Positions 21,170-56,800 of a DNA stretch of 64,000 bases are shown one piece after another. The notes beneath the pieces were generated by a model. The model was not told where the DNA came from and did no database searches. It was given only the letters and a program-made list of their open reading frames with translations. How positions within the stretch are numbered: position 1 is the first letter of the stretch; each line of letters opens with the position of its first letter. Source of the stretch: Balanoglossus misakiensis (lineage: Eukaryota > Animalia > Hemichordata); contig CM082577.2 of NCBI GenBank assembly GCA_040954595.2, forward strand, positions 13,213,903-13,277,902. Direction: 5' to 3'. A program made the position numbers and the translations under genes.

Positions 21170-21470
21170 AGAAAATCACTGGTCTGCTGACGTATTTCGG
21201 CCACATTAGCGACTGAGGGTAAAAGTCCGCTGCCGCATTACATTGAATGTTAACCAGTGTAGCGGGATCTGCGTAGACACATTTGAACGGCAACAGCTAA
21301 CAAACTCAGCGTAATTCAATAAAACGCCCTAACACTGCCTGAACTCCGATAATGTGTTGTCCCAAAATTCATTCCGTGGAAAATAATCACTGGTCTGTTT
21401 ACGTATTTCAGCCGATTTTCCAAGGACTACTGCAACCCGCCTGCTAATGAGATCTCCACAACATTACGTA
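21170..21470. repeat. Fragment related (inverted) to the interior of the 45471-45947 MITE
   Basis: AATCACTGGTCTGTTTACGTATTTCAGCCGATTTT and its flanks match the reverse complement of ~45625-45835. Confidence 0.6.
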
Positions 21471-21483
21471 ATGACGGTCATAG

Positions 21484-21902
21484 TCCGATGCCCCAGTGTT
21501 CGTCCTCAGCCCACCAAAAAATGCGAAAAATATTACAAAAATCTTCTTCTCAAAATCGACGTGGCCTAGGACCTTGAAATTTGGCACAGGGGATTTTGGC
21601 CACATGGTCTACAAAATCGCGAAAAGAATGTACATGCCCCCACTAACGTGCAAATTAGGTCAATTTGAAAATTTCGCTCGATTATAGCCACCAAGTCAGG
21701 TGACCAATTACAAATTCAAAGGGCAAGTGCACCAGTACTCATTGGCCCCAACCACCGTGCCAAATTTCATAGGCGTAGGTCCAGGGATTTTTGAGAAAAA
21801 CGGGAGCAAAAAAAACGACTCAAGAAGAAAGAAGAAAAACTCCAGCAATAACAGAAGATTTCAAGAGGGTTTTGAGACCCCTCTGGTCTCGAAACCCTAA
21901 TT
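21484..21902 (-). mobile_element. HINE/DINE-1-like element
   Basis: Terminal inverted repeat AGGGTTTTGAGACC...GGTCTCGAAACCCT at 21866-21898 and a (GAA)-rich tract. The core is shared with ~32755-32950. Confidence 0.5.
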
Positions 21903-32969: not shown

Positions 32970-33275
32970 AGTGGGGGTGGGGTGGCAAGTGCTCTGCCCT
33001 GGTACACTAGACAAACCAGCCAATAAATGAAATGTGGCGAAGAATGAAGGGGTGGGTGTGGGGGGGGGTGTCCCCCTCCGACATTAGAATTTTGTGAAAT
33101 AAACGGCGCGAAACTGCAATTTGTGGATTCAAAAGCAAAAGTTCGGTGGCAAAAGTATGTGACCTCCCCCTAAACGTTTAACAAAAATGACCTCTCCCCT
33201 TTGGATTTCAAAATTTAAGTGACCCCCGCTGGATTTTGCCGCCCCCCTCCCCCTCCGTAAAAACTGAACGGTTCA
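32970..33275. repeat. Second copy of the element end seen at 485-786
   Basis: GCAAGTGCTCTGCCCTGGTACACTAGACAAAC ... CCGTAAAAACTGAACGGT is shared with that copy. Confidence 0.75.
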
Positions 33276-34239
33276 TAAACTACTGATGTAAGCGGAATTC
33301 AGTTAATATGGACGGGGCGGTCAAATTCTTCATCTTTTCCCACTAAAAAAGTATTTAACACCCCTACCCCACAATTATGATGCCCCCCGTGAAGATATAA
33401 ACATTAAAGTGACACCACCAAGCTGGTAAATTTGTAGATTTGTCAATATTATTATTTGAATCTCTCCCTATCCCTCTATTGTGATTAAAACGAAACCAGA
33501 AACACAACAGACAAATTGACTGATATCCTCGACGCTGGACGCCTTCCGAAACCATGAGATGTTAATTAGATACCCAGGGGGCATTGTAGCATGTCACGAA
33601 TTACTGTAACAAAGGTTATCGCAAAGGGGATATCCAAACCATCGGCCAGTTCGGAGAATATAAGGAGGGGATTTCCAGAACAGACAAAAGGTTTCAAATT
33701 GGTTGTTTCATGTGAAATTCAAAGTAGCCAACGTCGTGATTATTTAATACAAACGAATTTATATCACACTAGAAATTAAAAATCAACTTCAATCCCGAAA
33801 AATCAATTTACTTAGTACGCCTTCTAGACAAGCGGCTATCGTAGATTACATTTCTCTCATTATAGAGAATGGGACTTCTCGACACATTACATTCAAAGAA
33901 AATGTCACAAATGAACATATGCCGGCAGTCACCATACATTTGCAACATTGCCGTGTAACAAGGGATACAATGTTCACCAAATTAAGCCCTCATTTTGCTG
34001 TATATCGACTACCAATCATTTTCTACTCATAAAGATATTGTTTCGTACGAAGATCACAAAGCTATTTACTACTGACATTAATCTGACCTATTGCGCCAAC
34101 GCGATGTAGGGCATAACTGTACTTTAAAACTATTTTGGCAAACAACGATACGCTTAAAACATACTCACGTCTTGTTGCGGCAAAGGAATAACCTGGACGA
34201 TTGCAAAGGCGCCTGGGACACGGGTTTTTGTAGTCAAGA

Positions 34240-34265
34240 TCACGTGACTTAACTGGGAATTCCCC
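34240..34265 (-). promoter_or_regulatory. E-box + NF-kB site module upstream of a minus-strand splice donor
   Basis: TCACGTGA (34240-34247), GGGAATTCCC (34255-34264) and donor GTGAGT at 34168. Confidence 0.5.
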
Positions 34266-34799
34266 GAAGTGATCACGCCATCCAAGCATGGTGTCAACAG
34301 ACCCAATTCTTCTTCCCCAGTGCAAGTACAGCTACAGACCCCCCCCCCCCCCACAACGTTTTTTTCGGAGATAGGTATTTTGGCAAGCATATTAGTGTCT
34401 GATGTGACGAGCGTGACCGTGAGAGGCTACGGTCATTGAATTGATGTTAATGTTTTCATTATGACAGAAATTAAAGTAAAATCCATCACAAGTGTTAGAA
34501 TATGACCATTTTCTTGTCATATTAAAAGGGTTGGTTTATGCAATATGCAAACTATGTGGGATTGATTTTTTGTTCAGGCCTGTGTGAACTGGAATATGGT
34601 TTTATGACCTAAGTTCACAGCGTTCATATATCATGAATAAATATGTCATGTATAAATTAACATGGTGCAATCTCTTCAGGGAAAGCCACTGGTCGCTGGA
34701 AGAAGTTTTTGTTGACCCATGATTTTGTGGATCCAAAATATAAATAACGTGAAAAGCTGTCAAATACTTTGTAATATTAATACAGTAATTCAATTATAA

Positions 34800-37700
34800 G
34801 ACAACGAGGTCTCCTTGTGAGTCAGGTTACTTGAACAGAGGTCATTTATTGATCAGTAGATATGCAAATGACGTTTTCGTCGAAAATAGCAGGGGATTTC
34901 CAAATCAACGTTGAAACAGTTTGGCGGTTTCTTGTGAAATCAAAAAAACATATACAGTTTTACACAAGTGTGTCATTTTTAATATGTCTACCTCATTTAC
35001 TTTGAAAATGATTCTACCTAGGCTTGTGGTAGACGTGTGTGAGTCTCTCTCCCCCCCCCCCTCTCTCTCTCTCATATGGTAGCAGAAGATTCTCAAGCCT
35101 ATATGCACGTAGGGAAACTCGCAAAACAAAACGAGAAATACTATTTATAACACAAATCTATGATGTCTTTTTTCAGGGAAGCAGGGCAATGCAGAACACA
35201 TTTTGAAAGTGAAATTTGTATACTTCTTCAAAACACCATGCTATAAGAGTCTTTCTTTTCAACATTTCCAGCGACGTATACTGAAAGCACTTATCATTGT
35301 GTTGATTAACAAAGGCAGGCGCATTCACCTGGACTGCGTGACCGATTTACATGCCTCATATACCTCGAAACCGAAAGTTAAAGTTGATATTTTCAATATA
35401 TAAAATACTCTTCCTGAACATTACAACCAATTTAATACCATATCCTTATCATAGCTAGGGAAATGAAAATTACAATTTTACTGCCAGACGAGAATTTCTA
35501 CATTTGAGCATTTAGCTATCTTACTTGTTTGACCAGAGTATATGAATGATGTTTCACACCGACACAAATGTGAAGAAGATTACTAGTGTGACACATGACC
35601 TTTTTTCAGAAATAAATGTTTATTTCATGTACTAAAATCAACAAACACGAAGTTTCTTGGCCGATAATGTCAAACTGATTTAATCATTGTACAATTAAAT
35701 GCTTTCATTACCAGTAGTATATGCGGATATATTGTAATGGTGGCAATCTAGCGATGAACAGGTAGCAAAAGGATGTTAAATAAAAACATAAGACGGTCGA
35801 TTAAAGAGCGATATTACCAGCCATAACCTATTCAACCACCCTCTTCACGACTTCACATTATGATTGATTGTTTTTCTTTATTGTAGAGGAATGAGAATTC
35901 TTGACGTATCGTTCACATGCATTCATAAGTACACATTAGCACTCTAAATGCGCCAGACAATGCATTTACTTACAGGAAAGTCCCATAACAAGGCTCTCGT
36001 CAACCAGTTTGTCTGTTACAGCTATTGAGAATTCGGGCTGTCTATATCCATTGCCAGCATTGGGTGCAACATATACTTCAATTGTCCTTCGTGGATCAAA
36101 TAACACTAACTGACCACCATTGTTTATTCGGGATTTATCAAACTTGTATACCTTAGAAAAATTTAATATGAGAGAAAATAAGACTCAATCTTACCCCCCC
36201 CCCTTTAATTTAACAACGTAGGAGTGTGAACATTATCATCCCAATCCAGGCAAAACATGATACAGCTGAGTACGGCAGGGGAATTGTTTTTAAATATCGT
36301 AGCATGGGACAACATCCTATGTCTTCCTCTCTGCATCAAACAATAAGCAGTATTAGGGCTAATATATATATGTGTGTGTATGAGTGTGTGTTAAAAAATA
36401 AATTTATCTAGCATGAAAAACAGACCAAACTGGGTCATCCCTATCTTTTGACCCCACACAAATGTACAAACAGAAGGGCATACATGGTTGTATATTATTT
36501 TGATTGAATTGAAATATAACCTTGTATGCACTGATTATCCCAAACAAGCTGTAATTTCATACATATTCATTCATTTGGTAATTAGCAATGAATATGAATT
36601 TATAACAATTTCAACAACTTAAAATAAAAAAGTAGCAATGATTTAGCATCATGGTTAATACATAATGATGTTGTCAATCATAGACAGATTTTAAAGATTT
36701 GTTATGCAAACAAACTGGGGTAAAGAAACTGTGTGGTCTTTGTGAATACGTTTGCATTCGTTTTCGTTTAAATGCGAGTACATGGACCAGCATAGATTAT
36801 CCTAGCATGTTTTTTAAATACACATTGTTGGTGTAGTCAAAATGTAGAACAAATAAAAGGACCGCGCAGAATCTATTCACTTAACATGAGTGCCTGGAGC
36901 ATGCGCAACGCGGTGTTGTTGACAGACAATCACATGCAATTACTCATAGGAAAACCCCGAATGCTGGAGCCATTTCGCATCACCTGACATTCATCACGCG
37001 TGCTTGTAAATTTGAGAGACGCACGCTATAGCATACCTTCATTTTGTCTTCCTCATCGCGCTCATGTATAGTCTTACACAGCCTGGTTTCTGATTTTCAT
37101 AAAAAACCGACGTAATGCGAGATCGCTCACCATTTCTCGCCCTATCCCACTCTCCCCTCTTTTTCCCCCAACCCCTTTTCTGTCGTGAATTACTCATAAA
37201 ACAGATCCGAGGTCAGTTATTGACAATAAGATATGCAAATGAGGTTTTCGCCGAATGTGGACAGGGGATTTCCAGATCAAACAACAACATACTGGTAATT
37301 TGGTTGCTTCGTGTAAAATCCAATCTTTATTCGGGTCTCGTTCAAACCCGAATAAAGATGTTCCTTGAGATTCTCCGGAATGAGCATGGATAGCAACCAC
37401 CGATGGATGCATTGTCAACAACTAAAACAGTGGCTCTCCAACTATGTTGGTCAGTACGTGTTATCGGACAGACTGATGATAGTGCATTCGGCCTGCGTTG
37501 CTCGGCAAAAGCTCACCTGCATGACCTGCGTGTCACGTCAACAGCCGGAATTCTCATTATTTAGAACAGAAATAACTTGGTTGACAAGATAGGACTAACC
37601 TGCAAATAAATACGCTGTCAGCCGCCATATTCAGCTTTAAAACACTCCTGAAAATGGGGTTACAAAAGAAATTTATCATGTTACACACCTAACGAGGTCA

Positions 37701-40360
37701 TGCTTGTCTTTTGAGTCTAATCGCACGAGTAGGTACGAGCTTAATAACTTACATACAGTTATATTTACGAGCTTAATAACGTACATGCAGTCATTTTACC
37801 ATTTACTCAAGGTCAAATTTTATTTGCAGAGTTTACACCAGTTGCTTGTGTACCCAATTAACTAAGAAGCGACAAAACTATATTGTTCTGGGTTTAGTCT
37901 GTTAGTTGCGCACTTGTACGTATTCACAGCGGAAATCAGCATAGAAAAGCACGTGGGATAAAAAAAATACCAGTGCAAGACACAGGTGTCACAGAATAAC
38001 ATGTTTTTTCTTTCGGTTCTACAGCTGTGTGAACTTGTGACCTGGCATGATATGTATACGCCGCTGGTACCTGGCAACCTTAATTATCACACGGTGGCTT
38101 GGCACTGTATCAAACAGATCAACAGTTCACAGAGCATGCGCTCTGATAGAATACTGCGGCCACGCGACAAGGAATAGGATTAATTTAGTACTCATAGAAA
38201 GTTGTCATTGTATTCATTTTAGACACTTTACCGTTCTGCTGCTGTTTGTTGCCTTTTTATTGCCTTCTCGATATTATTACAATGTGACAAACTTAATATA
38301 AGGACTGGGGGTTAATTTGCGAAATGCAGTTTTCGTTTCACGTTTCACGCAAAACCACCCATCGCATCGGTAGCTTTGCATAGTATTCGATTGTTTTCAA
38401 AACAGTTTAATTTCTACCTCTCAACATCACTCATTAACCTCTGGCTGTCCTTGTCTTCTAAAAAACTAAACCGAAAGCTGAACAGGAATAAAGTGCAAGA
38501 GCTGACATATTAATATATATCAAGTAGAGCAGGATTCGTAATAATCATGATCAGGTAACGTGATAGGAAATTCCCGGAATTGGTCACGCCATCTCAGCAT
38601 TGTCCTAGCGATCCCTAAAGCTAAGGCCCTGCTCTCATTAGTGCATGTACGAAACTCTCGCCAAGGTTTTTTTTCAGATGCTATTTTTCCCAAGTTGATT
38701 TACCACTTAATGGAAGCACATCAATCATTTCAATGTTTGCTCTATCGTTAAAGGAGAGGCCCTAACTTGCGAATATTGGACAGGAATTTTAGACTTGGCT
38801 TTTTGGATGGGCTGAGTGCCAACGTAACGACATTCATTCCGCCGAAGCAATTGAAATATTAACTGAAATAAAAAAAATCAGCTGGAAGTTTTTGTCTGTG
38901 GTACGACAAGGTAATATCACTCGCAAATAAGCAAATCAAATACATTCTCAATTTACGATCTTGCTCAAAATAGGCCGTGGTCCATATTGTGACAATGAAA
39001 ATGCCGTGTGTTATGCAAATGCACACCTAACTTTGTGTCTGTTGGTAAATCATGTTAGAAATACAAAACCAGATAAAATAAAACGAGAACATATGTAAGA
39101 TAGCTTATGACACAATGCACGATCCGACAAATCAGGATAACGGCCATCAGCTGCTCATCATGCAAGGAGCAATTTGAATAGGTGAAGGATTTGTTGCTGT
39201 AAATGCAGAAAACAACAAACACTGGTGAACTTTGTTGGTCTTTGCTTTCGTTTGCGTTGAAATATGAGCACCATATATCAGCCTTTAAAGGTATTTTGGT
39301 ATATTTCACACATATACCTTGTTGGCGCAGTCAAAATGTACAACCCGAAACGGGACTGCGCAGAATCTACTGAATTGAACACTAGTATTTATCGGACAAG
39401 ACATGAGTGTCTGGAGCATGCGCACCGAGGCGTTGTTGACAACCAATACGACGAAATTACTCATAGGAAAGCCCCGACTGTGGCCCGACCCTTTTTTGTA
39501 TCTGATTCACTTGAAATTCGTCGGGTAGCGCTGGCTATTTTGAGAAAAGCAATATTGTCCTGGCATTTATATCAAAAACACCAAACGCAGACAAATATTT
39601 TGTGATATGGAAACGTATAATGGTACTTTTATTATCAGGCCGCAGGGTCTCGCCTGTCGTGAATTAGTAGTAACAAACAGAAACGATGTCATTTATTGCA
39701 AATGATGTTTTCGTTAAATATAGGCGGGGGATTTCCTGATCAAACAATAGCATACTTTAGTTGCATTGTGTGATATTCAAAACACATATTTTCTATATTC
39801 CTACAAGTGTGGCCCTTTTCACACTCGACCTCGTTGACGTTGCGAAATGTTGAGAAATCTACCTAAGCTTGTGTTACAGTCAGATCGCAATGCAGCCTAT
39901 ACATGTATACACGTATGCAAAATCCCACCACAAAACATGAACTTATAACAACTTAAAACAGCGGTGCATGTTCTTATGAGAGCAAGGCCATGCAGAACAC
40001 TTTTCAACCGTGGAATATTTAATTTAGCTTAGATGTAAAAAAAGGCGTGTGCATTTACATTTACTGCGTGGCCGAGTTATACGTCTTGTATGCCTTGAAC
40101 CGGACTGAAGAAATACTTATTCATTATGCTGCTGTTGTTGTTGTTGTTGTTGTTGTCGTCGTCGTTGTTGTATTGTTGAACGACTCGGACACACCGAACT
40201 GGACAAGTGAAATTACAATTTTAATGCCAGATTCGAAAATTTTAACAGATCAATTTCTACAAAAGTTTAACATTTGAGTGATATGGTATCTATTTGACCA
40301 GAGTGTGAAGAATATTCCACACCAACAAAACAAAAGTGTGAAGAAGATTACTAGTGTGAA
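34800..40360. repeat. Three diverged ~2.4-kb tandem non-coding units carrying octamer + NF-kB motifs
   Basis: ATGCAAAT..GGGGATTTCC at 34862/34892 and 37233/37264, with variant TTGCAAAT at ~39696/39727. Shared blocks: 36825-37290 vs 39318-39760, and 34855-35590 vs 39690-40360. Confidence 0.75.
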
Positions 40361-42229: not shown

Positions 42230-44601
42230 TCATGCTAAAAACAATGTTATGCGATTCTCAACAAGTTCTGAAACGGCAATCTGGGGATTGGAAAGTCTGC
42301 TGACGGCAATCGAGGACGGTGCGCGAATTTTGACGCCGCCTATGTTGTGTAACCACTGTCCTTGCGGGTCATACTTCACGATTCTTCGATTTCCAGCGTC
42401 ACAGACATACACGTTGTCATTGGCGTCGACATCGAGTCCCTGTGGATCCTCTAGCTGACCGTTGCACGACCCTTTGGAGCCGAACGATGTCTGATAGGTG
42501 AGATCCTCAAAACTAAACACCTGCAAACGATGGTTGTCTCTGTCTGACACGATTACACGGCCTTCGCTGTCGACAGTGACCGATTCCGGCCATTTGAATT
42601 TCCCCTCGGCTGTGCCTTTCCCTCCCGTTTCACCGACAAAAGTACCGTCATCCGTGTATTTCAAGACTCGGTGATATTTGACGTCGGTTACAATGGTGAA
42701 GCCTTTGTGCACTGTTATGCCTCGGGGTTCTATGTCTTCCTTGCTACCAAATGCTCGAACAACACCATCGTGTTCGTTCCAGACGATTACCTGACTATTT
42801 GCGCGGTCGGTGAAGATAAAATTGTCGCCAGACATAGCGACATCCCACGGGCGGAATGGCTTGTAAAATGGACTCTTCGGTGTGATGGTCTTTCCAGATG
42901 TATGATTTTCGTCAACCACGTAAAAATTGTTCTTTCTACCCGTATTCACAGCAACCAGGCTATTATCTCCACGGAAGAAAACCCCACGCGGTGCATCAAA
43001 TCGTTCACATAAGACACATGTCTCGTAAACTGGCCCGGACGTTTCTGTAGTAAAAGCAAAGGAGCGTTTAATCAACCAGTGCTAAAATAATCCGTAATAG
43101 AACGGCATAAAGGACTGATTAAAATAATGTATGGTTCACATTTGGATATTGGAGCAGTTCTTATTTTATACACGACTTTGTAATTGTAACTAAAAAATTG
43201 TGAAAGTAAAGTTTTTAATTGAACATTTTGTCATAAATCTTTAGTGGCATATTTTCAAAATAATTGTTACAGGCACGTATATAAGAAATGTATTTAATCA
43301 ACTAGAATTACCTGCTGACGTATGATAAATTATCTCTTAAAAATGTGTCACTTGGCAGTATTATTTGCCCCCCCCCCCACATCCTTGCCTTTGGCTTGTA
43401 TTATTATGCCTATGATAGGAAATACCCCAATGCCCTGATTACCTATATGTCTTTCCTTTTCTGCATCTGTGTCTTTCCCCTCAAATAGTCTCTTATCACT
43501 TGACTCAAACTGACTTGTGTCTCGGATTCCAGGAGTCTGTTTTTCTGGCGTCAATGGTGATGTATTTCTTGCTTGATGTTGAACCTTGAAATTCTCCAGT
43601 TCAGAAACGGCCGATTTCACTGGCGTAAAAAAATAAAAAGGTGTATGATAGGAGTATGCATGTCTAGGTGGAATAACAGGCCGGTCAAACAAAATATGCT
43701 TACAAACAGTTTTACTAGGTATCAATGATTTGCTATATTTGTTATTTGCAGCTAATTTGTTTATTTTTAAAATATGTTTTATTTTTTTTACATCACAAAT
43801 CAACACAGTAGTCTACGTCTTCTGTGTAGAGCTTATTAAACCATGTTGTCATACACGGCGAAATGGTTTTGACCATTTTACCTGCATCTTTGACGATTTT
43901 ACCAATTTCTTCTTTCCGGAGACTTTCATTCGTTTCATTGATAACCTTGTTTTGTCCATTTTTAAATTTGTTTTCGGTCTGTAGGACTGATAGTGTTTCA
44001 CGATTATCATTTACTTTACTTCCCACGCCTTTGCCTGAAAGATTAACAACACTTCTGTGTTATTTCCCTTCTTTTCCAATATTAGTGATCAGCTTACAAA
44101 CTCTGGCTAATCGGTCAAAATACATGTAGAAATTTGTCTCGGACCAAACAGTACGGGTGCCAAATGCGCTATTTATCGATTCTGAATAGATTATGTCCGA
44201 GCATCTGCTTCTTCAGTGAGATAACTCTTTTACAAACAACTTCAATTGGAACTGTCATGCTTAACTACGGTATAAGTTCATTACTTACTGTAAGCAGCCA
44301 CGTTGGTGTCAGAGTGGTCATTTTTAGTCATTTGGGGTGTTTTGAAATTCTCTACCATCTCCTTTAATTTGGGCAGTCGCATTTCTCCGAAAAGTTCTTT
44401 TAATAGATCAAGGTTGTTCTCTGATATGTGCCCCAGCTCTTCCAATTTTTCGAAGACTTCATATGACCGTTTTAAACTTCCCCTATCACGTGCTTTTATT
44501 TGGTTTACGAGGAGGCTTAACATCCTGTCAATATTTTCGTCGACGATCTCTTCATCCAGATTATGAAACAAGCACTTAAGTGGATTTATCTGATTTGCCA
44601 T
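42230..44601 (-). CDS. DED-linker-NHL repeat protein (~485 aa), exons 44601-44289, 44034-43882, 43619-43443 and 43044-42230
   Basis: Exon 1 is a DED (VFEKLEELGHISENNLDLLKELFGEMRLPKL). The last exon has NHL repeats (FKWPESVTVDSEGRVIVSDRDNHRLQVF; LEDPQGLDVDANDNVYVCDAGNRRIVKY). All three introns are GT-AG and phase 1. The joined CDS is 1458 nt and open. A frame-neutral 24-nt micro-exon near 43312-43335 is possible. Confidence 0.8.
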
Positions 44602-45102
44602 CGCCGGCTTAAGTGCCAAAGAAAACATATAAAGGCCTAATTAGTATACTTGTACTCTAATCACAATGGGTTCAGTCAAAAAAAACATTTCCCATCACAC
44701 AAGACGCTACACCAAAATGAATATAGCCAACACTGCAAACTGTTATAAACAAAATATGAAAACCTGCATAGCTGGCAGAGGTTTCATAACAATACCCGTT
44801 TTCCGTAGGAAAGGACAGGCAGATTTTAATTAATTTCGCTTATGCGACATTGGGTTGAGACATGACATTTACAGATTACATAGTCCTCGGGTTGCATATG
44901 ACAACTCCGGCATACAAAATAGTAGGAATGTGGCAATATTTTCCTTTTTTTGAAGCGCTCTCAGTTCGAAGAAATATTGTCAGTGTATATGAACAAGTAC
45001 AATTTGCCTTACCTTTGGCGTGGTGGATGGTCAAGGCGGAAATTATCAGTTTTGTTCTCAAATCTCGTGAGTGTTCAGTGCTGTGTAAAGGGGCGACCCC
45101 GT

Positions 45103-45386
45103 GTCACGTGATTCGTGGGATTTTCCCGAATGAGTCAGGTGCTGAACGGCTGTCGCGAACCAACAAAACATGAAACAAGATTATTTCATACTAGTCGTCG
45201 AGAGCGTTAAACTATAAAAAGCTATCACCGTGCTTGATACATTGTTTGACACCGGCAATACTTCCAAAATCTTATGTTCACCTTACCTTCTGCGTGATAT
45301 GTGGTGGTTGGTCTCGACGGGGACGAGAGCCGAGTGTTCTTTGCAAAGGTATGACCTACATGTCACGTGATCTGCGGGGATTTCCC
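45103..45386 (-). promoter_or_regulatory. Tandem E-box/NF-kB/AP-1 promoter modules of the DED-NHL gene
   Basis: GTCACGTGA at 45103 and 45362. kB sites GGGATTTTCC at 45117 and GGGGATTTCC at 45376. TGAGTCA at 45131. Donors GTAAGG at 45012 and 45286. Confidence 0.6.
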
Positions 45387-45470
45387 GAATGTGTCGCGCG
45401 GAGATGATCTGCTGAGCCACTGTCAAACGTAAACAGATGACAGTTGCAATTTTTTCAGCAACCATATTCC

Positions 45471-45947
45471 TAGCTGTGATACGCAGCTGTACCGTAAGGG
45501 GGGGGGGGGGCTGATTACTCACGGACAGCTGCGGGCCGACCCCCAGGCCCATACTAAACGTGCAGTTGCACTATACCCGAGTACATGGGTTAACACTCCG
45601 GCAGCGGACGTTGACCCTCACTCGCTTATGTTGTGCGAGGTCTCATTAGCATATTAATGGCAGTCACTTCCAGCGGGTAGTACTCCTTCGAAAATCGGCT
45701 GAAATACCGTAAACAGACCAGTGATTTTTTCACGAAAGGAGTTTTGGGACCAGAAATAATCAGAGTTCAGGCTTGTATAGGGCGTTTTATTGAAATACGC
45801 TCAGTTTGTTTTCTGTTGCCGTTCAAACGTTACTACGCCAGTCGCGGCGGTGCAACTGCACGTTTAGTATGGGGGTCGTCCTGCAGCTGTCCGTGGGGTA
45901 ATCAGCCCCTCCCCGCCCCCCAAAGGTACAGCTGCGTACCGCAGCTA
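45471..45947. mobile_element. MITE with ~95-bp TIRs (TAGCTG...) and 9-bp TSD
   Basis: TAGCTGTGATACGCAGCTGTACC at the left end and GGTACAGCTGCGTACCGCAGCTA at the right. TSD CCATATTCC at 45462-45470 and 45948-45956. Confidence 0.9.
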
Positions 45948-48251
45948 CCATATTCCTAGTATAATAGAACTGTATCAAATTGAGTGCTTACATTTGGCCA
46001 ACAGATATTCCTAACCTGCAAGCATGTGGCTTTAAAAACGCTTGCTTTCGACATACATAGACCCTTTCTCTAGGGTCTATGCTTTCGATCACAATTTGTT
46101 TCCTCTTAAAATAATTTCACCGACATTGCGATCTTGTACCCATGCATGCCATGAAGACTATAATTTGAATCAATTTGAAAGCCGATAAGCAGTGGAGTAT
46201 ATGGCATGCAATAACAACAGCAGTTTGACAAGTTGGAATGATGGTATCTCAACATCTCAACGCTATGAAACGAGACATGGCCCTGTTACGGGAGCTGCTT
46301 AAAACCAATGATGTCCTCGGACAATGAGTTTTATCTTATATTCAGTGTGTATTGCATAGAGAGGGAGAGAGAGGAGGAGGCGGGGTGGGGTGGGGTCTGG
46401 AGCTAATCTCGCTATGTTCATCTGTACTTCTCGTCGAATAATGAACGCGTGTACATAGCAACAGTCAGCCATCGGTACGAATCAAGATTAAAATCACAAT
46501 TTAAGTATTAATCCGTTTAATAAGTAGGAACGATTGACGCATACATTTGTTTTAACGATTCACATGTAAAAATCGTCGACGTAAACAAGAACCAATTTAG
46601 ATGAGAGAAAAAATCACCCAACTCATCGCTGGCAGTACTCGAAAGTGGGCTTTCCTCGGCTGTGCAGTCTGCATACACAGATGTTTGAATACCGTCAATA
46701 CGGTCTCTGATCACATAATATGCAGTGTGATTTGTCGTTTCATCACTATTACAGGATGTGCCACTTGTCAGTAATTCAATGATGTTCTGTGTGGGTGTCA
46801 TTGGCACGTTTCAAATCTGGACAGTTTCTGATCCACTGATTAAAGATGCTTAAATAGGCCATGTTTAACGATTATAATTCCATTTACATCCCTTGTCTTT
46901 ACCTGTAACATTAACACCACATTTGTTTTAAATGCCATCATTTCTAATGTTTAAAGGGGAAAAGTCTCTCGTTTTGATGTAAAAACCCACTTAATACTTA
47001 CTCCAAATTAATGAGTAACTCATATGATGACCCCACATGGCTTGAAGTGTACGGTGAACTTCCACGACCAAGAACTCGCGACCCGGGACTGACGGTGCCT
47101 TCCCAACGCCAAGCTTAGGAGCGTTTGATTTCATTCCAACATTGAATTTCCGAGAAACCAAATGTTTCATCCGCCCTGCAGTTTTCCAGGGTCCTTTAAG
47201 TGTTTATGCTGATGCAGTGAAGTGTGGGCGACCACATAAGCGCGCGTTTTCCAGTACCAGACGGCAACATACACTTGCATGCGCACGTACTCTATGAATT
47301 GAAGTTCGCGCTCAAATACACGGTACAGACGATTTATTGATTTTGGTGAGTTTTTACTCTCGTATCTACAATCGGAATGGTAGTTGTGTGTGGTTGAATT
47401 TTGATTTACTATATATCCATATGTAAAATAATATAAACAGTGTCTTCTACCAGTGAGACATAATTCATGGGAAAGGGACAGCGAGAGAGAGACCTTGTCC
47501 CTTTAACGATTCACTAACCTGTCCGAACGAGACATCGCCTTCTTTCTAATGAAGTTGAAAATCACAACAAAATATATCCCACGAGTTGCATAGTATGCCT
47601 TTCCGCATACATTCTTTTATTTACCAATCAATCATTAATTGAAGCTTTGAATTACATCATATAACCAACAAAACGGGACAAATCACGACACAAACAAAAT
47701 GAACACAAGAGACATTGCAGGCCCTGACTATGAAAAGAATGACACTAGCCTAAGCAATAGTTTAATGTGAATAACAACAATGCAATAGTATCTGCCAGGT
47801 GGTTTTGAGGGCGTAGAGTATGTATACCACTATTAGTCAATTTAATATTTGAGCCCGATTTATAAATCCTCCATGTCTCTGACATGTTGTTATGTTTTCT
47901 TTATGTGTAACTGGTTTATGCGTGGACAATTTTTTTCAGGTTCTATATATTCGAGGCGTTCTCTTTATAACTAGTGTAAAAAATAGAAGTAGCTCGCCAG
48001 GTGAATAGAGTTTATGACGACAAGATCTGGATCATGGTAACCTGTTCCAAGCAACTAAACACTGACTTATACCAGGCGGAGATAAAATGGCCGATATCTC
48101 CGTTAAATTTTGAAATATTTTCATTTTCCTGAGTTTAACAATTATATACATCAAAAGCAATGTATTTTAAAAAACAAAAAATGGTGTTCCTGCCATCTCT
48201 TTTTGTATGTCCTACAATTTCACTGGTGTCTTTCTTCTGTCAACTGCTTAA

Positions 48252-48750
48252 AGGCACATAAGCTGCAACTTTTGGGATAATTATCGTAATTTTTGTTTAT
48301 AACTGTACTACCATCAGTCCATGCAGATGAAGGCAGTGAACTATACACAAGCATTGTCAACCCTAAATATGAGTGCATATGCAAGTTTTAACCAGGTGAA
48401 TAACAAAGCTTTGCCGCAAGCGAATATGGCCGCCCGTGGGAAAATGCAAGAAACAATGAAAAAGTTGCATTTCCGGTTGTGAAACTTCATAACAAAACAT
48501 GATCTCATGCACTCGAGCTCATGGAAGTAAATGTACACAGCTGAGACATTATATTTTCCTTTTTATTTTGCAATATTGCACTTTTTTAAACATTGCCGGA
48601 ATTTTCATCTTTCTTAAATTTTGGGCCATTTTGTCATAAATAAATGTTGAGCTTGATATTATCATGAAATATCATTTAATGGACATAATTAAAAGCATAT
48701 ATGAGATTATTAAAACTTTAATTTTTTATCCAGTTGCAGCTCACGTACCT
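48252..48750. mobile_element. Kolobok-type non-autonomous element with TTAA TSD
   Basis: TTAA|AGGCACATAAGCTGCAACT ... AGTTGCAGCTCACGTACCT|TTAA. A partial copy of one end lies at ~41232-41335. Confidence 0.8.
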
Positions 48751-48797
48751 TTAAATTGCAATTTTTCTGCTTAATGGTGGTAATACATGTATGTCCT

Positions 48798-49085
48798 CTA
48801 AATAGGTGCAATATGTTCGGCTGCTTGATATTCCTTTATCATCTTTATTAATTTTGGCATCTTCATCGTCTTGAAAAGGTTTATTAAGAGATCAAGGTTG
48901 TTCTCTGATATATACCCCAGCTCTTCCAATTTCTCGAAGACTTTGTATGACTTGGTTAAATTTTCGATGTCACGTGGTTTTATTTTGTCGCTGAGGAGTG
49001 CCTTCATCTCGTCAAATGTATCTCTGACGATCTGTCCATCCAGGTCGTAATACAAGCGTTTGAGTCGATTTATCTGATTTTCCAT
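48798..49085 (-). CDS. DED-only protein (95 aa), paralog of the DED-NHL exon 1; could be a pseudogene
   Basis: MENQINRLKRL...VFEKLEELGYISENNLDLL aligns to 44601-44289. A stop codon precedes the position of the paralog's splice donor. Confidence 0.7.
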   Translation of the reverse strand: MENQINRLKRLYYDLDGQIVRDTFDEMKALLSDKIKPRDIENLTKSYKVFEKLEELGYISENNLDLLINLFKTMKMPKLIKMIKEYQAAEHIAPI

Positions 49086-49392
49086 CGCGGGCTGAAGTAT
49101 CTACGAAAGGAAAGTCAGAATCAGTATAGTTGTGTGATGATCAAAGTTGTGTCACTTTAAAAACAATTACATTTTCGCCATCACGCATCACGCTCCATCA
49201 AAATAAACATAAAATTCACTGTCAATCTTTTGAGTCGATTTATCTGGTTTCCATCACGAGCTGAAGTATGTACGAAAGGAAAGTCAGTATCAGTTTACTT
49301 GTGTTATAATCAAAGTTGTGTCACTCTCAAAAACAACGGCATTTACGCCATCGAGCATAACGTTACATCGAAATAAACATAAAATTCACTGC
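49071..49392. repeat. ~170-bp direct duplication of the DED start/acceptor region
   Basis: TTTGAGTCGATTTATCTG...CTGAAGTAT.TACGAAAGGAAAGTCAG...AAATAAACATAAAATTCACTG is present twice. Confidence 0.8.
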
Positions 49393-50204
49393 CAACAGTT
49401 AAACGTTGTACATGTTTCATAACAATACGGTTTGCCATAGGAAGATACTAGGAAAAATTACTAAATGCGTTCATTATGAAACGACGAGCGATCTTTTTGT
49501 GTGTGTCATGGACATAAAAGAGAGGGGTCACCAAGGGTGATTTTTGCAGCTATATCTTCTGGGATGGAATTCTGATAGCAAATAGAAGTAGTTTCCATCA
49601 ACTTGTATCACCTGTACACCAATGGTTGAGACCAGGTCCGACATGCTACAACAATCACACTTGACATTTTTTTCCAGAATGCACTATTTTGAAGCCCGGC
49701 AAATTCAGTTTATTTTTGATTTTAACAAAGGCGGGTGAAGCGACTTCTATTAAAGAGTGCGCGTGGCGATGAGTCACCCGAAATCTTCTACGTTGCATTG
49801 GATTAAGATGTGGCGTCTATAGATATAGCGTCTTTCCGTGGTGCATATGACATGACAACTCTAGCGTATACAAAATGTTAAATATGAGGAATTTTCTATG
49901 TTTCAAATTATCACATTTACGACGAAAATCTGTCGTTTTGCAACTGTCCATAATTGGTTTATTAGTCGAAGTATTTAATACCATGGATGAATACGATTGA
50001 CTCTATGCTTTGCGTTGTAGTTTTACGACCGGACTTTGGATTATAAGGGAAATTTAGCAGTAATGACATGATACGACTGTGTGTGGTAACTTGATTGTAA
50101 TGCTTACCTTATTACCTTTGGGTAGCGGCGGCTGGTCTCACCTGAAAATAATAGTTTTTTCTCAAAACCTTGAAGTGTTCAGTGATGTACAAAAGAATGA
50201 CCCC

Positions 50205-50500
50205 CGTGTCGCGTGGTTTGTGGGATTTCCCCGATTGAGTCATTTGCTGAACGACTGTGCCATGTTAAAAGACAACATAAAAGTAGATAGGTTCATAACT
50301 ATAGTCGTCGACCGCCTACCAAAAAACAATAGCCTATCGCCGTGTTTTATACCTTGTTTGATACCGGCAAAGTGTGAACAAAGTAAAGTTCACCTTACCC
50401 TTTGGGTAAAAGTAGCTGGTAGGGCCGGAGACGAGACCCAAGCGTTCAGTGCTGTGTTAAGGTATGACCTCCACGTCACGTGATTTCAGGGGATTTCCCC
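50205..50500 (-). promoter_or_regulatory. Tandem E-box/NF-kB/AP-1 promoter modules of the DED-only paralog
   Basis: GGGATTTCCC at 50222 with TGAGTCA at 50236. GTCACGTGA at 50475 with GGGGATTTCC at 50489. Donor GTAAGG at 50398. Homologous to 45030-45390. Confidence 0.6.
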
Positions 50501-50813
50501 TATCGAGCCATATGCCGAAACAGAAACAGAAAATGTTGATAGTTTCACACTGATAAATTTAATCTACTCGTAGAATATGGCTTAATGGGGAAGATTCTGA
50601 AGGATAGACAGAGAGGTTGAAGGTTATTTTTTATATTGTGGAAAATATGTGAAACTCGGCAGCTCATGAGGCTTTAAAAGCGTTAATGACAGTGACAACA
50701 AAACTCTCAAGACATTGAAAACTGCCGCAGCAGGTTCGTGAAGCCCTGAGAAAATATGTTATGTCAATATCTCAATAAAGACCAAAATTTCCACACAGTG
50801 AAAAGAGTTATGT

Positions 50814-53800
50814 TAGGGAGGCCAATGGGTCTATTTCCACATCAAGATAAAATCACATGTTTGAGTTGTAACAATAACATTGTTGATGGCATGAATCATG
50901 TACTCTGTGTGTTTTTCTTATGTCTGTTGTAAGAATAATTCAGTGTAAAAATTTCAGAGCTTTGGCGGACTTAAAAATTATAGAAAATTTGGGCTGAATA
51001 TTGCAAATTGAGTGATTTCCCACAATTTCAGGAAGGTGCACAATAGGACAAACTTGCCATTTTAGGACCAAATTTTACAAAGAAAAACCACGGAAATCAA
51101 TCTTTTTTCAGTATAACTTGGACAACAAATACCCAAATAAAGAAAAAATAACAACAAATTATCACAAATATGATATGACTTAGACATATACGCTTTTAAA
51201 AATATCAATTTTATCGTTTGCCACTAAAAAATGGCCAAATTTGGCCAAAAAAATCATTTTTTTTATTTTTGAGTGAAAGTCAATGAAACTTTCAGATATA
51301 TTAGTCCAATACACAAAATAATGATTGACGCTGAAAAAATTAATTTTCTGGCAAAAATATGCAAATTATATGATAATCCTATGCAAATTAGATGTTTTGC
51401 CGGTAAGCAAATTTACAGATTTCCAGGGGTCTAATAAGCAAAAATAGGGCAGTTCATGCTATTTTGACATATCCTGCTGAAAGGGCATCAAAACATGTTG
51501 CATATCTATTATTTGCATCATTCAACAACTTAAGAAATGTTGATAACAATCAGCTGGAAATCTTAACTTTTTATACTCTGGACTCACCCACTAGGTCAAA
51601 GGTCATACATGCTTTTCAATGAGCCCTGCTAGGTTTGTTGTCAAATTCGAAGCACCAAAGCCACATTTTCCTCTTTTTTTGCCTATTTTCACATATTTAA
51701 ACATTCACAGTTATCATTTTATGATAATTATTGCAAATTTTCCACTCAATTGAGAAAAATTAGGCATTTCAACATGACTGAAGGAGTTAAAACAGGTTAT
51801 CGTGACAGGATATATTGAGAGGTACAGCCAAAAAGTTTCTACACTATACACCTTACCAGCTTCAGGATAGATTAAACAAAAGTCAAAACAGTTTTTCTGT
51901 TGGCGTTGCCTTTACATGTTTGTTTGCACATTTGGGACTTTATTTGATCAGCTTTGAAAGAGGTAAGTTATCTGATAATGGCTGGTCATCATCATCATCA
52001 TCATCATCAGTGTCACGGCGACATATTTTGGAAAGAGGTAAGTTGTCTGATAATGGCTGGTCATCATCATCATCATCAGTGTCACGGCGACATATTTTGG
52101 AAAGAGGTAAGTTGTCTTCAGACTCCTCATCAGAAGTGTATGACTTTGGTCTGATGATTTGAACTAGAGGTAAGTTGTCGTCGTCATCATCTGATGAACT
52201 GTCCATGTTCACAACAGTTACCACAGAGGGATTTTTTTCCTTAAATTTGGGCATTACATTTGTATTTGTTTTCACAAGTTGTAACAATAGCTTCCTTTTC
52301 TGTTCAACTGTTAATTTTGATCTTCCTTTCAGTCTTTCAGAGTTATTAATGTTTACATCTTCTGCAAGTAAATTCCAAAGCTGTAGTTGTCTGTTACACT
52401 GTGCACCACTTAATTTCCGGATTTTCTGTTGGTCTCTGATCAGTGTGTCTTCAGCTAGCTCTTTTCTCATTTCTGCCTGTTTCATTTCCTTCTTTTGCAT
52501 AACTGCTTGGCGTTTCCTGATTTTTTCTTCTCGTTCCTTCTTCTTAATCTCCTCTAGAGCAAGAAGCTGCCTATCCTTTGTTCCTACCATTTTGTGCTGT
52601 CTCTTTGCTTCTTTCTGTGCTGTATGGACAAGTTTTTCTTTCAGTTCTTGGTCTTGTCTCATTGCCCAATCAGTCGCCTTGTCACGCTTTGCACGAACCA
52701 CTGACGACAATGACATTGGGTTACTAGACGGGGCTGATTTACTCATCTGATCAAGAAGACCAAAGTCACTTTCACAAGGATCATTTGTTGCCCCTGGCAG
52801 TAGACTGGCAGCTTGAATCTGCTGTTGAGTTGGCACTGCAAATTCACCCCCTGGTAGATGCTCTCTAGCATGTTGAGCCAATTTCTCCGCTCCAGCAGCA
52901 CAACACACTTTTAAGATTTCCTTTACCTTATTATCTGTGTCATCTGGACGTCGAACTTCTAACATATACATTTTGTGACTCTCATTTCTCACTGCATCTG
53001 TCCAAAGTTTCTCACTTCCTTCAAAGAGACTTTCTGGATCTTCACTCCATTCTTTCAGTTTCTTCACACTTGCATCATAGATTTCATTCATTTCAAGTAT
53101 GTGTTTTACTGACTTTGTTTTTACCATTAAAGGCAAACAGACTTCATAGTAGAGTATTGCATAAGCTCTTTCCTCTGCCATGATACGAAGATCATTGTAA
53201 CCATCATACACACTGGCTTCCAGCTTATTCCAGTGACCTTTTGAATCACGCTGATCCACAAGAAAAATCTGGATAAACTGCCTACCTACATATGTTGGGA
53301 GGCTGTTATGAAAGTAGATGAGGTAGCGAGACCCAACAATAGGAGTGAAAAGCTGTGAGGCCGATTTCTTGAGTGTGTCCTGTGACAAACAGAATGCCTT
53401 AAAGTCTTTGCCTTTTGCATATTCCTTTTTACTCTGTTCACACAACAATTTGTCCGCTTCATAAATGTGCTTCTTTGCACCTTGCATTCTCCTGAAAGTG
53501 CTATCATGATCATCAGCATACAGGTATTTAACAGCAGCTTTATTCATGGCTTCAGTCATGTTTGTCAATTTGTGTGCACCACATGTGAATGCATGAATTC
53601 TTATTTTTTCATCTCTTTCTGTTTCAGTCATTTCATTCCATGTTGGTAGTAGGCGTTCTAATTCTTCTGTCTTCATTTCACATAGCAGTTTTGTTAACTT
53701 TCCTTCCGTTGCAGCTCTATCTGACATTCTTGCTTTGAAATTGATTACATTATATGTTTCTTCCACATCTTGCAAATTCATGTCTGTGCCTAGTCTCTGA

Positions 53801-56800
53801 AGTTCTGAAAGTAACTTTCGAAGGTCATCTAGAGTATCTTTAGCTTTGCCTCCAGCGATGGGTGTGAGACCTAGAGTGAATACAGTTCGGGAGCCAGTGT
53901 CACATTCATCATGGCTTGGAGACAAGACCAATTTATGAGTTAGCCATTCAAGCTGGCCTTTTGTAGTTTTATCTGTCATATAGGCAACATCTTTGTTTTC
54001 TCTTTTTGACCATTCCACTAATCCCCTCAATGTGGCAAGCTGTCCTGCTTCACACTTTAATCTCTGTGCTGTGGATCTTTTCGGCAATTTGACATCTTTC
54101 AAATCCATTGGAGAGAGGTGTCCTAGTACTGTTCGTATTACAGATTCAATCTGGTTTGAACTGACTCCTAATGTCAGGAGGTGATAATACACTAGTCGTA
54201 TTTCAGTTTTGTATAGGCCACCCTTTTCTTTGGTTTCCAGAGATGTCAAGTTGTGAATTGTTTCCTGCAGCTCCTTCTCTTTCTCAGTCTTCTCTTTCAA
54301 CTGCTCTTTCAACTCACTAACAATACCATCCAGGAAAATGGCAGCTGCCTCTCTATCAATTTCTATATTTTCTTCTGCTTCTTTGATTCGTTGTTTCAGA
54401 GTTGTCATTTCTTTGTCCTTTTGTGTGAGCTGTGTTTTTAACTTTTTCTGTTCTTTTTCAACTTCCCTGAGTTGCCTTTCCATTCTCTTTGTCTTTTTAC
54501 ATTCTGTAACGTGATCCATGGATTCATCAATCAGAGACATTGCTGCATCCTTCCACTGAGTGGCTTTTTCTTTGTAGGCGTCTCTTTCCTTGGATAGTGT
54601 CTGTATTTGTGTTTGCATACTTTTCATTTTTACAGCGTCATGTGCAGCCTTCTTTTTTTCTTCCTCCAAATTTTCCACTCTCTCTAACATATCATCTCTT
54701 TCTTGCAGAATATCTCTCACTTTCACACCAATTACAGCATGGTATCTTTTGTTCTCAGCTGTCACTACTTTAAGTTTCTTCTGAGCTCTGTCTACTTTCA
54801 TTTCTGCTTTCCTTTTGTCATCTTTAAGTTGGGCTTTACTTGGTGATTTGGAATATTTAGTTCCACTTCTTAGGGACAGATGGCAGGTATTGTTGACATC
54901 AAGGTAAGTATTGGGTTGGGTTACTTCATCATATGGTGGAGGTAAAGCATTAGACGTCTTATCGATTTGCATCACATCATTATAACTTGGCGGATTTGGA
55001 CCAGCGAGTAAGAATGATGGGGGATTTGAGTCAGGTAAGAATGATGGGGGCTTTGGGTCAGGAATGAGAAAACTTTGGCCCCATGTAAACTCTTCAATCA
55101 GGTAAGAAATAATGTTCCCATGTAGAGTTGCAGAATTTTTCTGATTTCTGCTTTTCTGAAATTTTCTTACAAGTTGTTCATACTTTTTATTTGTCTTTGT
55201 ACACTTTGCACGGAGCTGTGTCTCTGTTCTATTTGTTGTGTTGACCGCAGCAAACCGCTGTAGCCAGGTAAGGAGGAGACTCAAGGGATTGCAGCGAAAC
55301 AGTGATCCAAACTTTTTACTGGTGAAGTAAAGTTCCAGAATTTCTTTATGTGTCAATGCCAAATGAGCACAACTAGTACACTCCTCCAGCAGACTGGATC
55401 TAAAATGAAAAAAATTAAATAAAATTAGTTCAACTGAACGGTTTACAAGTAATGGGACAGCAACTCCAACATTTGATAAATTCACCTCCACAGTACAGTA
55501 GCAATGCATGTAATGTTACACAAAAATGACAATAAGCATTTCAACATGATAGAGAAAAATACCATGTAATTATGATTTGAATATCAAATTTGTCAGCTAC
55601 TGTTGCTATAAAAAGATCTATGTAAATATATATAACCACCTCAATTATGCCATAACTATATGTGTTACATTCAACATGCATTTTGTTGCACTTCAAACAT
55701 AAAAACAAAATACTTTGGGTGCAGTGAAATTTTACGCTGCTTAAAATTGTGTCTAAGACAAAAACATGTTCTCAATAAATTTACAAGCAACAGCTACTAA
55801 AATAATTTACAGCTACTGAATTAATTTACTTTTAATAAGCTAGGGCAGAATGAGAAACCACACAAAAGCAATAAAAGAATCCACCACCAGTATTACAAAA
55901 TCAAAATTAAAAAAACAACTTACAATAACAAAATAAACCAATGCCATGGTTGTTGAAACGTGAACTGGTGCTTTCATCTGGAAACAAGTCTTTCATCATC
56001 ACAACGATTAAACTGAACAGAAATAAAATTACATCAATAAATAATAAATTCAACAGAATATGAAACGATAGTCCTTGTTATAACGGTGGATTCACAATCA
56101 AACGAAAACAAAAATACAAACGGAAAGCAAGAAACGCTTGTCTATGTCACGATAATATCGAATCGAAAACCCGGAAGTGATTGTGCGATTTTGTATGTGA
56201 CACTGTAATATCGAGAAAACAAAAAAAACTGGCAAATCTGAATCAAAATGAAACAAAATTGATTATAAAACTTTACAAATGAAACCATAACTAAAGCAGT
56301 CGACATATACGAAACGAAAACATCACCTAAACAACACTTACGTGTAAGGATCGAAGCCACGCTGTACAAGGGACATGCTTGGCGTCCGTCGCCATGTAAC
56401 TGTAGGTACCGCTGAGTCGGCTACCCGGTCGGCTAACTCTAGATTGATCCGCGCAAACATTTTCGATCGGATCTCTCTGAAATTGTGACTGAATAGACAC
56501 TGAATGTCACAGAATCCAAATATTGGGGTTCCGTTTTTCAAATTTGGACGATAATTGATGCAAGATATCGTGGAAATAAACGATATTTACCGATGTCACT
56601 GAGCTTTCTGTCCGGGCGTTGCAGCTGAAGGAACCCTCATGTAGTAAAACTCTAAGCCTAGGCCTTTAAAGAGCTGTCATCTGATTGGCCAAAATCCATG
56701 TAGTATTTACGCGGAAAGGGGGTTAAATATCCAATCGAAAAAGTCGTTTGAAAAACACCTACTACCGATCGCCACTAGAGGGCGCCCTTTCGCATCATTC

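What the first reader, a model, noticed from the sequence alone, without database searches (positions are those of the whole stretch)
42230..49085. DED-NHL fusion gene paired with a DED-only paralog: candidate invertebrate immune sensor/decoy pair
Seen: separate ORF-track fragments join through three phase-1 GT-AG introns into an open 486-codon frame encoding DED + low-complexity linker + NHL beta-propeller. About 4.2 kb upstream, a paralogous DED stops right after the domain. Established: DEDs recruit FADD/caspase-8-type partners, NHL propellers are RNA- or protein-binding modules usually found in TRIM-NHL proteins, and short DED-only proteins (PEA-15, v-FLIP/cFLIP-S type) can act as inhibitors. 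Inference: an exon-shuffled receptor couples NHL ligand sensing to death/NF-kB signalling and has a co-regulated decoy. I do not know of a characterised DED-NHL protein.
Basis: partly seen in the sequence, partly recalled or inferred. Interest (0 to 1): 0.8.

Follow-up and report, generated by a model that had tools for sequence, protein, structure and literature searches.

The report
Acorn-worm DED-NHL gene with truncated twin
An animal gene, likely from an acorn worm, is predicted to join a cell-death recruiting domain to a six-bladed binding propeller behind NF-kB-like promoter motifs, a pairing also present in annotated acorn-worm proteins, so it is likely one of many shuffled immune adaptors, and its truncated neighbour is likely a dispensable duplicate rather than a dedicated decoy.

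Summary
The sequence observation holds. Four minus-strand exons joined by three phase-1 GT-AG introns give 485 aa + stop, with DED 50.6 bits and NHL 76.8 bits, both above Pfam cut-offs, and a complete six-blade propeller model. No RNA run was available, so splicing is untested. The pairing is not unique: 3 of 122 DED relatives carry DED+NHL, all Ptychodera flava RefSeq proteins auto-named TRIM2/3-like, one with TRADD-N-like, B-box and filamin parts between. I found no paper describing it. The upstream DED is a partial tandem duplicate: promoters, DED exon and a stop-ridden exon-2 remnant. Its DED kept its fold under selection and its stop is shared with an 86% copy, but a frameshifted allele exists. 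New: all four promoter repeats of both genes hold kB-like plus CACGTG-like motifs. The LIN41-type RNA pocket and the DED FL/RxDL motifs are not kept. Verdict: a real, likely immune-inducible DED-propeller adaptor, a new variant of the known shuffled DED receptors of marine invertebrates; the decoy role is possible but unproven.

The parts
44289..44607 (-). Gene A first coding exon: 6 nt of 5' UTR after an acceptor, ATG at 44601, DED (about residues 7-88), phase-1 donor GTAAGT at 44288
43882..44034 (-). Gene A exon 2 (153 nt, phase 1-1), charged linker; predicted
   Evidence: acceptor also kept in copy B
43443..43619 (-). Gene A exon 3 (177 nt, phase 1-1), charged linker; predicted
42230..43044 (-). 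Gene A last exon: complete six-bladed NHL beta-propeller (270 aa) and stop
   Evidence: pLDDT 92.9, 24 strands; TM 0.86-0.87 to Thin, TRIM2, TRIM3 NHL
45012..45140 (-). Gene A proximal promoter/5'-exon repeat: TGACTCA, kB-like site 45117-45126, TCACGTGA 45104-45111, donor GTAAGG at 45012
   Evidence: motif names recalled
45286..45400 (-). Gene A distal promoter/5'-exon repeat: kB-like site 45377-45386, TCACGTGA 45363-45370, donor at 45286
48798..49091 (-). Copy B DED exon: acceptor, ATG 49085, 95-aa DED-only frame, TAG; no GT donor between 48915 and the stop, so the whole DED cannot be spliced in frame to downstream exons
46862..46951 (-). Copy B remnant of intron end and exon 2 (74% to 43994-44083); exon starts 46902, TAA where A has Glu, three stops in the first 27 codons
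50107..50245 (-). Copy B proximal promoter/5'-exon repeat: TGACTCA, kB-like site 50222-50231, CACGCGAC, donor at 50115 or 50107
50398..50512 (-). Copy B distal promoter/5'-exon repeat: kB-like site 50490-50499, TCACGTGA 50476-50483, donor at 50398
48248..48754 (.). High-copy miniature inverted-repeat element (23-nt arms starting TTAA) inserted 44 nt behind B's stop; offers a GTACGT donor at 48748
   Evidence: (summed depth about 1e5)

Best explanation
Gene A is predicted to encode a cytosolic DED-linker-NHL protein that likely works as a stress- or NF-kB-inducible immune adaptor of an acorn worm, and copy B is a partial tandem duplicate that is likely dispensable. Shown: the two domains, their folds, the open four-exon frame, shared kB-like/E-box promoter repeats, and the same domain pairing in P. 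flava proteins. Inferred: the propeller descends from a TRIM-NHL protein whose RING-B-box-coiled-coil front was replaced by a shuffled DED exon; it binds a multivalent ligand (more likely a protein or ribonucleoprotein than a LIN41-type RNA hairpin), and this clusters the DEDs so that they seed or join assemblies with the many lineage-expanded DED proteins of the host (tandem-DED caspase-8-like, DED-NACHT, Roc-COR-DED) instead of adding ubiquitin. B arose by duplication of A's 5' part, lost the propeller, kept a folded DED and its promoters for a long time, and now has both intact and frameshifted alleles, as in birth-and-death immune gene families; where intact it may dampen or tune DED assembly.
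For: Frame and domains; models and fold matches. DED+NHL in 3 of 122 DED relatives, named XP_070571952.1 (cluster mate XP_070562291.1), XP_070546788.1 and XP_070539273.1 of P. flava; the last has DED, a TRADD-N-like stretch, B-boxes, filamin and NHL, no RING. A's NHL is sister to XP_070571952.1/XP_070562291.1 (SH-aLRT 97, quick tree). 28 of 30 relatives looked up are hemichordate, 2 unnamed. The same DED family sits on NACHT (10 of 122), caspase (13 of 122), LRR, SPRY, DEAD helicase, GT4 and Roc-COR proteins. kB-like GGGRNWYYCC: 25 matches against 3.3 expected, 0 of 100 shuffles; present in 4 of 4 promoter repeats, motif columns 15 of 19 invariant against 41 of 93 elsewhere, p 0.01. B: 23 of 23 core columns stay hydrophobic, A=B at 20 of 23 core against 28 of 67 other columns, p 2e-4; +2 frameshift allele after codon 31 with 6 non-synonymous and 1 synonymous codon change, next to an intact allele with 3 synonymous and 2 conservative changes.
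Against: No transcript evidence for either gene. No ligand or partner is shown. Both DEDs lack the FL Phe (SL, AL) and RxDL (LPKL, MPKL) that mediate vertebrate DED contacts (PMC4558505 passages), though many relatives lack them too. In the careful DED tree A/B are sister to Roc-COR-linked DEDs (90/85, unstarred), not to P0014, and their place is unresolved, so orthology with the P. flava DED-NHL gene rests on the NHL tree, which has long branches and no other hemichordate NHLs. The four promoter repeats are copies of one ancestor and the motif was picked after seeing them, so the motif statistics are optimistic. B's open frame is unlikely under neutrality (about 0.16 x 0.05) and its stop is shared with an 86% copy, which favours a function for B. 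The frameshift allele comes from one sample (two runs).
Confidence: 0.5

Rival explanations
1. Sensor plus dedicated decoy: B is a maintained DED-only inhibitor, co-induced with A, that caps A's DED assemblies as cFLIP-S or PEA-15 do.
For: B keeps kB-like sites in both promoter repeats, acceptor, ATG context and an intact fold; its branch is no longer than A's; the stop is old enough to be shared with an 86% copy; its downstream exon decayed while the DED did not. P. flava has a related DED without NHL (XP_070571937.1, same LPKL motif, sister to the DED-NHL DEDs at 97/95) on a contig of the same length as the DED-NHL genes.
Against: A frameshifted allele with pseudogene-like changes exists; dN/dS 0.61, bootstrap 0.35-1.11; nucleotide identity in the DED exon (72-74%) equals that of non-coding flanks (70-74%); transposon insertions sit directly behind the stop.
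Confidence: 0.25
2. A itself is a negative-feedback regulator: NF-kB induces it, its single DED lacking the alpha-2 Phe joins a DED assembly by one face and ends it, and the propeller targets it to a complex. B is a shorter form of the same brake.
For: kB-like promoters; single DED, no enzyme or oligomerising NTPase domain; FL changed to SL/AL; NF-kB-induced DED inhibitors such as cFLIP are known (recalled).
Against: The Phe is absent from most of this DED family (Phe in 31 rows of the column), including NACHT-linked members that are probably activators, so its loss does not mark an inhibitor.
Confidence: 0.17
3. The DED exon and the NHL exon are not one transcript (separate genes or a decaying locus) and the linker exons are chance.
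For: No RNA evidence; the linker has no homologue or Pfam match; the window is rich in broken transposons.
Against: Only 1.2 kb separates the exons; all phases match; the NHL frame has an acceptor at its start and needs an upstream start; P. flava relatives carry both domains in one model; the NHL frame is intact with 2 synonymous and 2 non-synonymous listed variants.
Confidence: 0.08

Closest known systems
P. flava RefSeq models XP_070571952.1, XP_070562291.1 (359 aa), XP_070546788.1 (418 aa), auto-named TRIM2/3-like
   Same: N-terminal single DED plus C-terminal NHL propeller, no RING or B-box; 41% (DED) and 34% (NHL) identity to XP_070571952.1
   Different: Shorter or no linker; uncharacterised gene models; the DED of XP_070546788.1 belongs to another DED lineage
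DED-TRADD-N-linker-WD40 propeller expansions of Branchiostoma and Crassostrea (Kaur et al. 2021, PMC8195603; passages and section 12 read)
   Same: N-terminal DED, flexible linker, C-terminal beta-propeller; lineage-specific expansion in a marine invertebrate; proposed immune role
   Different: Propeller is NHL not WD40; no TRADD-N in gene A, although the P. flava DED-TRIM-NHL XP_070539273.1 has a TRADD-N-like stretch
'Direct connector' DED-NACHT and related shuffled receptors of amphioxus, sea urchin and Nematostella (Zhang et al. 2008, PMC2575513; passages read)
   Same: A death-fold adaptor fused directly to a sensing module by domain shuffling
   Different: No NACHT switch or LRRs; a single propeller
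TRIM-NHL proteins (TRIM2, TRIM3, TRIM71/LIN41, Thin, Brat)
   Same: Six-bladed NHL propeller, TM 0.78-0.87
   Different: No RING, B-box or filamin; basic RNA pocket of LIN41 not kept
PEA-15, cFLIP-S, v-FLIP (for copy B)
   Same: Short DED-only protein; fold matches PEA-15 and FADD DEDs at TM 0.83-0.90
   Different: Arose by local duplication of A, not an orthologue; one DED rather than cFLIP's two; no RxDL or FL; a null allele exists

Membership tests
DED (PF01335) proteins | Score above the Pfam cut-off and six-helix death fold | tested here: met
   50.6 and 52.5 bits, cut-off 35.9; B model has six helices, pLDDT 89.7, TM up to 0.90 to FADD DED (E-values 4e-3 and above). A's DED was not modelled.
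DED (PF01335) proteins | FL hydrophobic patch and E/D-RxDL triad (PMC4558505) | tested here: not met
   SL/AL and LPKL/MPKL; also degenerate in many relatives
DED (PF01335) proteins | Homotypic binding to FADD, caspase-8 or other DEDs | not tested
   The complex-prediction queue was full, so no prediction was obtained
TRIM-NHL | C-terminal six-bladed NHL propeller | tested here: met
TRIM-NHL | RING, B-box, coiled coil (tripartite motif), often filamin | tested here: not met
   No Pfam match in the linker frames; no Cys in the 127-aa linker
LIN41/TRIM71 RNA-binding NHL | Strongly basic top pocket (Arg/Lys before the blade Pro and after the DxxN Asp; PMC5908797) | tested here: not met
   By-eye comparison of blade motifs: 6 basic and 4 acidic top-face positions against 9 and 1 in TRIM71; Arg before Pro in 1 of 6 blades against 4 of 6; net charge -4. 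Other RNA-binding modes are not excluded.
DED-TRADD-N expansions (Kaur 2021) | TRADD-N domain after the DED | tested here: not met
   A profile iterated from two Pfam TRADD-like_N hits finds 14 of the 126 relatives searched but not the gene A model
DED-only inhibitors (PEA-15, cFLIP-S type), for copy B | Intact, expressed DED-only protein | tested here: inconclusive
   Intact in the window and one allele, frameshifted in another; expression untested
DED-only inhibitors (PEA-15, cFLIP-S type), for copy B | Inhibits DED assembly or caspase-8 activation | not testable with these tools
   needs cell or in vitro assay

The most novel reading that the evidence does not exclude
Acorn worms turned TRIM-NHL ubiquitin ligases into direct death receptors more than once by swapping the ligase front for a DED, so that an NHL propeller sensing viral RNA-protein complexes triggers caspase-8-type assemblies without FADD, and an NF-kB co-induced DED-only twin sets the threshold, with null alleles of the twin giving individual variation in the response.
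Probability: 0.15. Interest if true: 0.75.

Novelty: new variant of a known kind. Interest (0 to 1): 0.42.

Why it matters
It adds NHL propellers to the list of modules that invertebrate deuterostomes wire directly to death effector domains, with a visible path from TRIM-NHL (DED-TRADD-N-like-B-box-filamin-NHL) to minimal DED-NHL, hidden in databases under TRIM2/3-like names. The duplicated kB-like promoters make an immune role directly testable with existing acorn-worm challenge RNA-seq designs. It is not a new kind of system: DED shuffling onto propellers and NACHT domains is described, and nothing here shows ligand, partner or expression.

Tried and rejected
No whole genome is held. No RNA holder listed; this is no evidence on expression. 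The A-B complex prediction was never queued because the queue was full, so there is no result. Word-indexed searches found nothing for the DED among longer proteins and only 9 distant NHL proteins; the profile search listed 120 of 339 hits, of which only P0014 and P0071 carry a precomputed DED. The ESM Atlas gave only generic NHL clusters under 0.9 for P0014. Rejected: B as an in-frame alternative first exon or part of a tandem-DED form, because there is no GT between 48915 and the stop; B as a long-dead pseudogene; the GTAAGT near 47003 as B's old exon-1 donor (no homology to A's exon tail, 207 of 300 shuffles scored as high); further DED or NHL exons in the window (none). Literature: 'DED-NHL' 0 papers; 'death effector domain' + 'NHL repeat' 2 unrelated-looking reviews, listing only; 0 for four terms; listings showed no title or abstract on the pairing; 'NHL' has 0 main-text hits in PMC2575513, PMC8195603 and PMC10210618. 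Supplements: PMC8195603 12 of 13 files searched, NHL seen only inside sequence strings in the 2 passages shown, and its architecture tables may label NHL as a generic propeller; PMC10210618 one file, no hit. Subscription papers are not covered.
Full report
Observation. The minus strand carries an open four-exon frame, 44601-44289, 44034-43882, 43619-43443 and 43044-42230, with three phase-1 GT-AG introns of 254-398 nt, giving 485 aa plus stop. The first exon scores as a DED (50.6 bits, cut-off 35.9) and the last as NHL (76.8 bits, cut-off 20). The DED's best solved relatives by sequence are caspase-8 and FADD, weakly (E 0.003-0.07); the last exon matches TRIM71, Thin, TRIM3 and TRIM2 NHL domains and folds into a complete 24-strand propeller (pLDDT 92.9; TM 0.86-0.87 to Thin, TRIM2 and TRIM3). 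The linker exons are open only in the needed frame and differ in composition from the introns, but both can be skipped in frame, so the exact linker is the least certain part. No RNA run was listed, so splicing remains predicted. The second DED (49085-48798) is real (52.5 bits; six-helix model matching FADD and PEA-15 DEDs) and stops after 95 codons.

Relatives. A profile of the two DEDs found 122 cluster representatives. All 122 were scanned against Pfam and against A's NHL: 3 carry DED and NHL. They are Ptychodera flava RefSeq proteins XP_070571952.1 (with cluster mate XP_070562291.1), XP_070546788.1 and XP_070539273.1, all auto-named TRIM2/3-like. The last has DED, B-boxes, filamin and NHL without a RING match and a TRADD-N-like stretch. 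Of 30 relatives I chose to look up, 28 are from P. flava, Glandiceps talaboti or Saccoglossus kowalevskii and 2 are unnamed, so the window is likely from an acorn worm, though not a close match to the P. flava proteins found (DED identity at most about 45%). The same DED family is fused to NACHT (10 of 122), caspase (13 of 122), LRR, SPRY, DEAD helicase, GT4, Ig and Roc-COR parts: DED-NHL is one of many shuffled products. In a quick NHL tree of 41 rows the five DED-linked propellers group together (98) and A is sister to XP_070571952.1/XP_070562291.1 (97), with a long-branch warning and no other hemichordate NHLs sampled. In DED trees A and B are sisters (97; 99/95, 32 rows picked from 172). 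One clade for all DED-NHL DEDs is rejected (p-AU 0.033; one row, P0015, was added to the group after seeing the first tree), while a clade of A, B and the 359-aa P. flava proteins is not rejected (p-AU 0.114) but is not the best tree. So the fusion or DED replacement likely happened more than once.

What B is. B duplicates A's 5' part: two promoter/5'-exon repeats, the intron, the DED exon and the exon-2 acceptor, at 67-74% identity. Its exon-2 remnant has TAA where A has Glu and three stops in 27 codons; no NHL exon follows; a high-copy inverted-repeat element lies 44 nt behind the stop. There is no GT between 48915 and the stop, so B cannot feed a full DED into A's exons. Evidence for selection on B: all 23 hydrophobic core columns kept, identity to A 20 of 23 in the core against 28 of 67 elsewhere (p 2e-4), no faster rate than A against three outgroups, and an open frame that neutral change would keep with probability of roughly 0.16 (stops) times 0.05 (indels). 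An 86% copy in the sequenced sample shows no difference at the stop codon, so the truncation is old. Evidence against an essential role: dN/dS 0.61, interval 0.35-1.11, and a 97% contig that runs into the same element end and carries a net +2 insertion after codon 31, seen in two runs of one sample, with 6 non-synonymous against 1 synonymous codon change and a stop at codon 36; another allele is intact with 3 synonymous and 2 conservative changes. Contigs at about 86-88% over A's DED exon, A's third intron and B suggest further copies or divergent alleles. This mix fits a birth-and-death family better than a fixed sensor/decoy pair, without excluding a modulating role for intact B.

Each of the four repeats has a kB-like site followed within about 6 nt by CACG(T/C)GAC and, 90-115 nt on, a GTAA donor; the proximal repeats of both genes add TGACTCA, an AP-1-like site (motif names recalled). 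GGGRNWYYCC occurs 25 times in the window (17 distinct places) against 3.3 expected, TCACGTGA 6 times against 0.9. The repeats share ancestry and the motif was chosen after seeing them, so this is support, not proof, for immune or stress induction. Hemichordates encode NF-kB family members and regulate the pathway after dsRNA challenge (PMC10210618, passages).

Mechanism. Terminal death-fold domains bridge immune proteins by homotypic contacts (PMC8195603 section 12), and artificial DED fusions can redirect signals to apoptosis (cited in PMC2575513, passage). I infer that A couples ligand binding by the propeller to DED clustering. The ligand is unknown. The LIN41 pocket residues (PMC5908797, passages) map to fixed blade positions; by eye A has 6 basic and 4 acidic residues there against 9 and 1 in TRIM71 and the domain's net charge is -4, so a LIN41-type hairpin is unlikely, other RNA modes remain open, and a protein ligand is my preferred guess. 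Both DEDs lack the FL Phe and RxDL (PMC4558505, passages), as do many relatives, so partners may be lineage-specific DEDs rather than FADD. No complex prediction could be obtained because the queue was full.

Comparison and verdict. Closest described systems are the DED-TRADD-N-linker-WD40 expansions of amphioxus and oyster (PMC8195603) and DED-NACHT direct connectors (PMC2575513). A is not a TRIM (no tripartite motif), not a LIN41-type RNA binder by pocket, and not a TRADD-N protein. My searches found no paper on DED-NHL (listings only, subscription papers and one supplement file not covered). It is a new variant of a known kind: real, uncharacterised, already present in public gene models. 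Interest 0.42. Two earlier unchecked notes on this genome also point to an acorn worm with Roc-COR death-domain sensors; they are leads only.

Noticed in passing
window 33065-40360: Eleven kB-like matches (nine places) in duplicated non-coding units (34231-34292 like 38542-38603; 34838-35031 like 37180-37323 and 39654-39876; 36751-36963 like 39241-39480), one unit with TCACGTGA beside GGGAATTCCCC; no DED or NHL coding sequence found. Possibly promoter remains of further duplicated immune genes.
   Followed up: partly
window 51940-55515 (-): Intact 1191-aa single-exon frame with a coiled-coil stretch and repeated acidic tail, about 1.4 kb upstream of B's promoters; no Pfam family above cut-off, Atlas hits only to unnamed eukaryotic clusters under 0.9. 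Looks like a transposon-type protein (recalled impression, untested).
   Followed up: partly
window 49053-49395: Tandem 173-nt duplication (86%) that copies B's acceptor and first codons upstream; the upstream copy reads ATG then stops after four codons and could act as a competing acceptor or short upstream frame.
   Followed up: no
window 45471-45947: Inverted-repeat element with nested arms just upstream of A's distal promoter; inner part also at 21271-21500.
   Followed up: no
window 48748: The element behind B offers a GTACGT donor 49 nt after B's stop, near the usual 50-55 nt limit for nonsense-mediated decay (limit recalled), and AATAAA/ATTAAA signals inside it.
   Followed up: no
P0015 (XP_070571937.1): P. 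flava DED without NHL, sister to the DED-NHL DEDs, on a contig of the same length and with an accession number close to XP_070571952.1: may be a parallel DED-NHL plus NHL-less pair. Position not checked.
   Followed up: no
window 3965-30387: Many broken reverse-transcriptase and integrase-like frames of retrotransposons; not examined.
   Followed up: no
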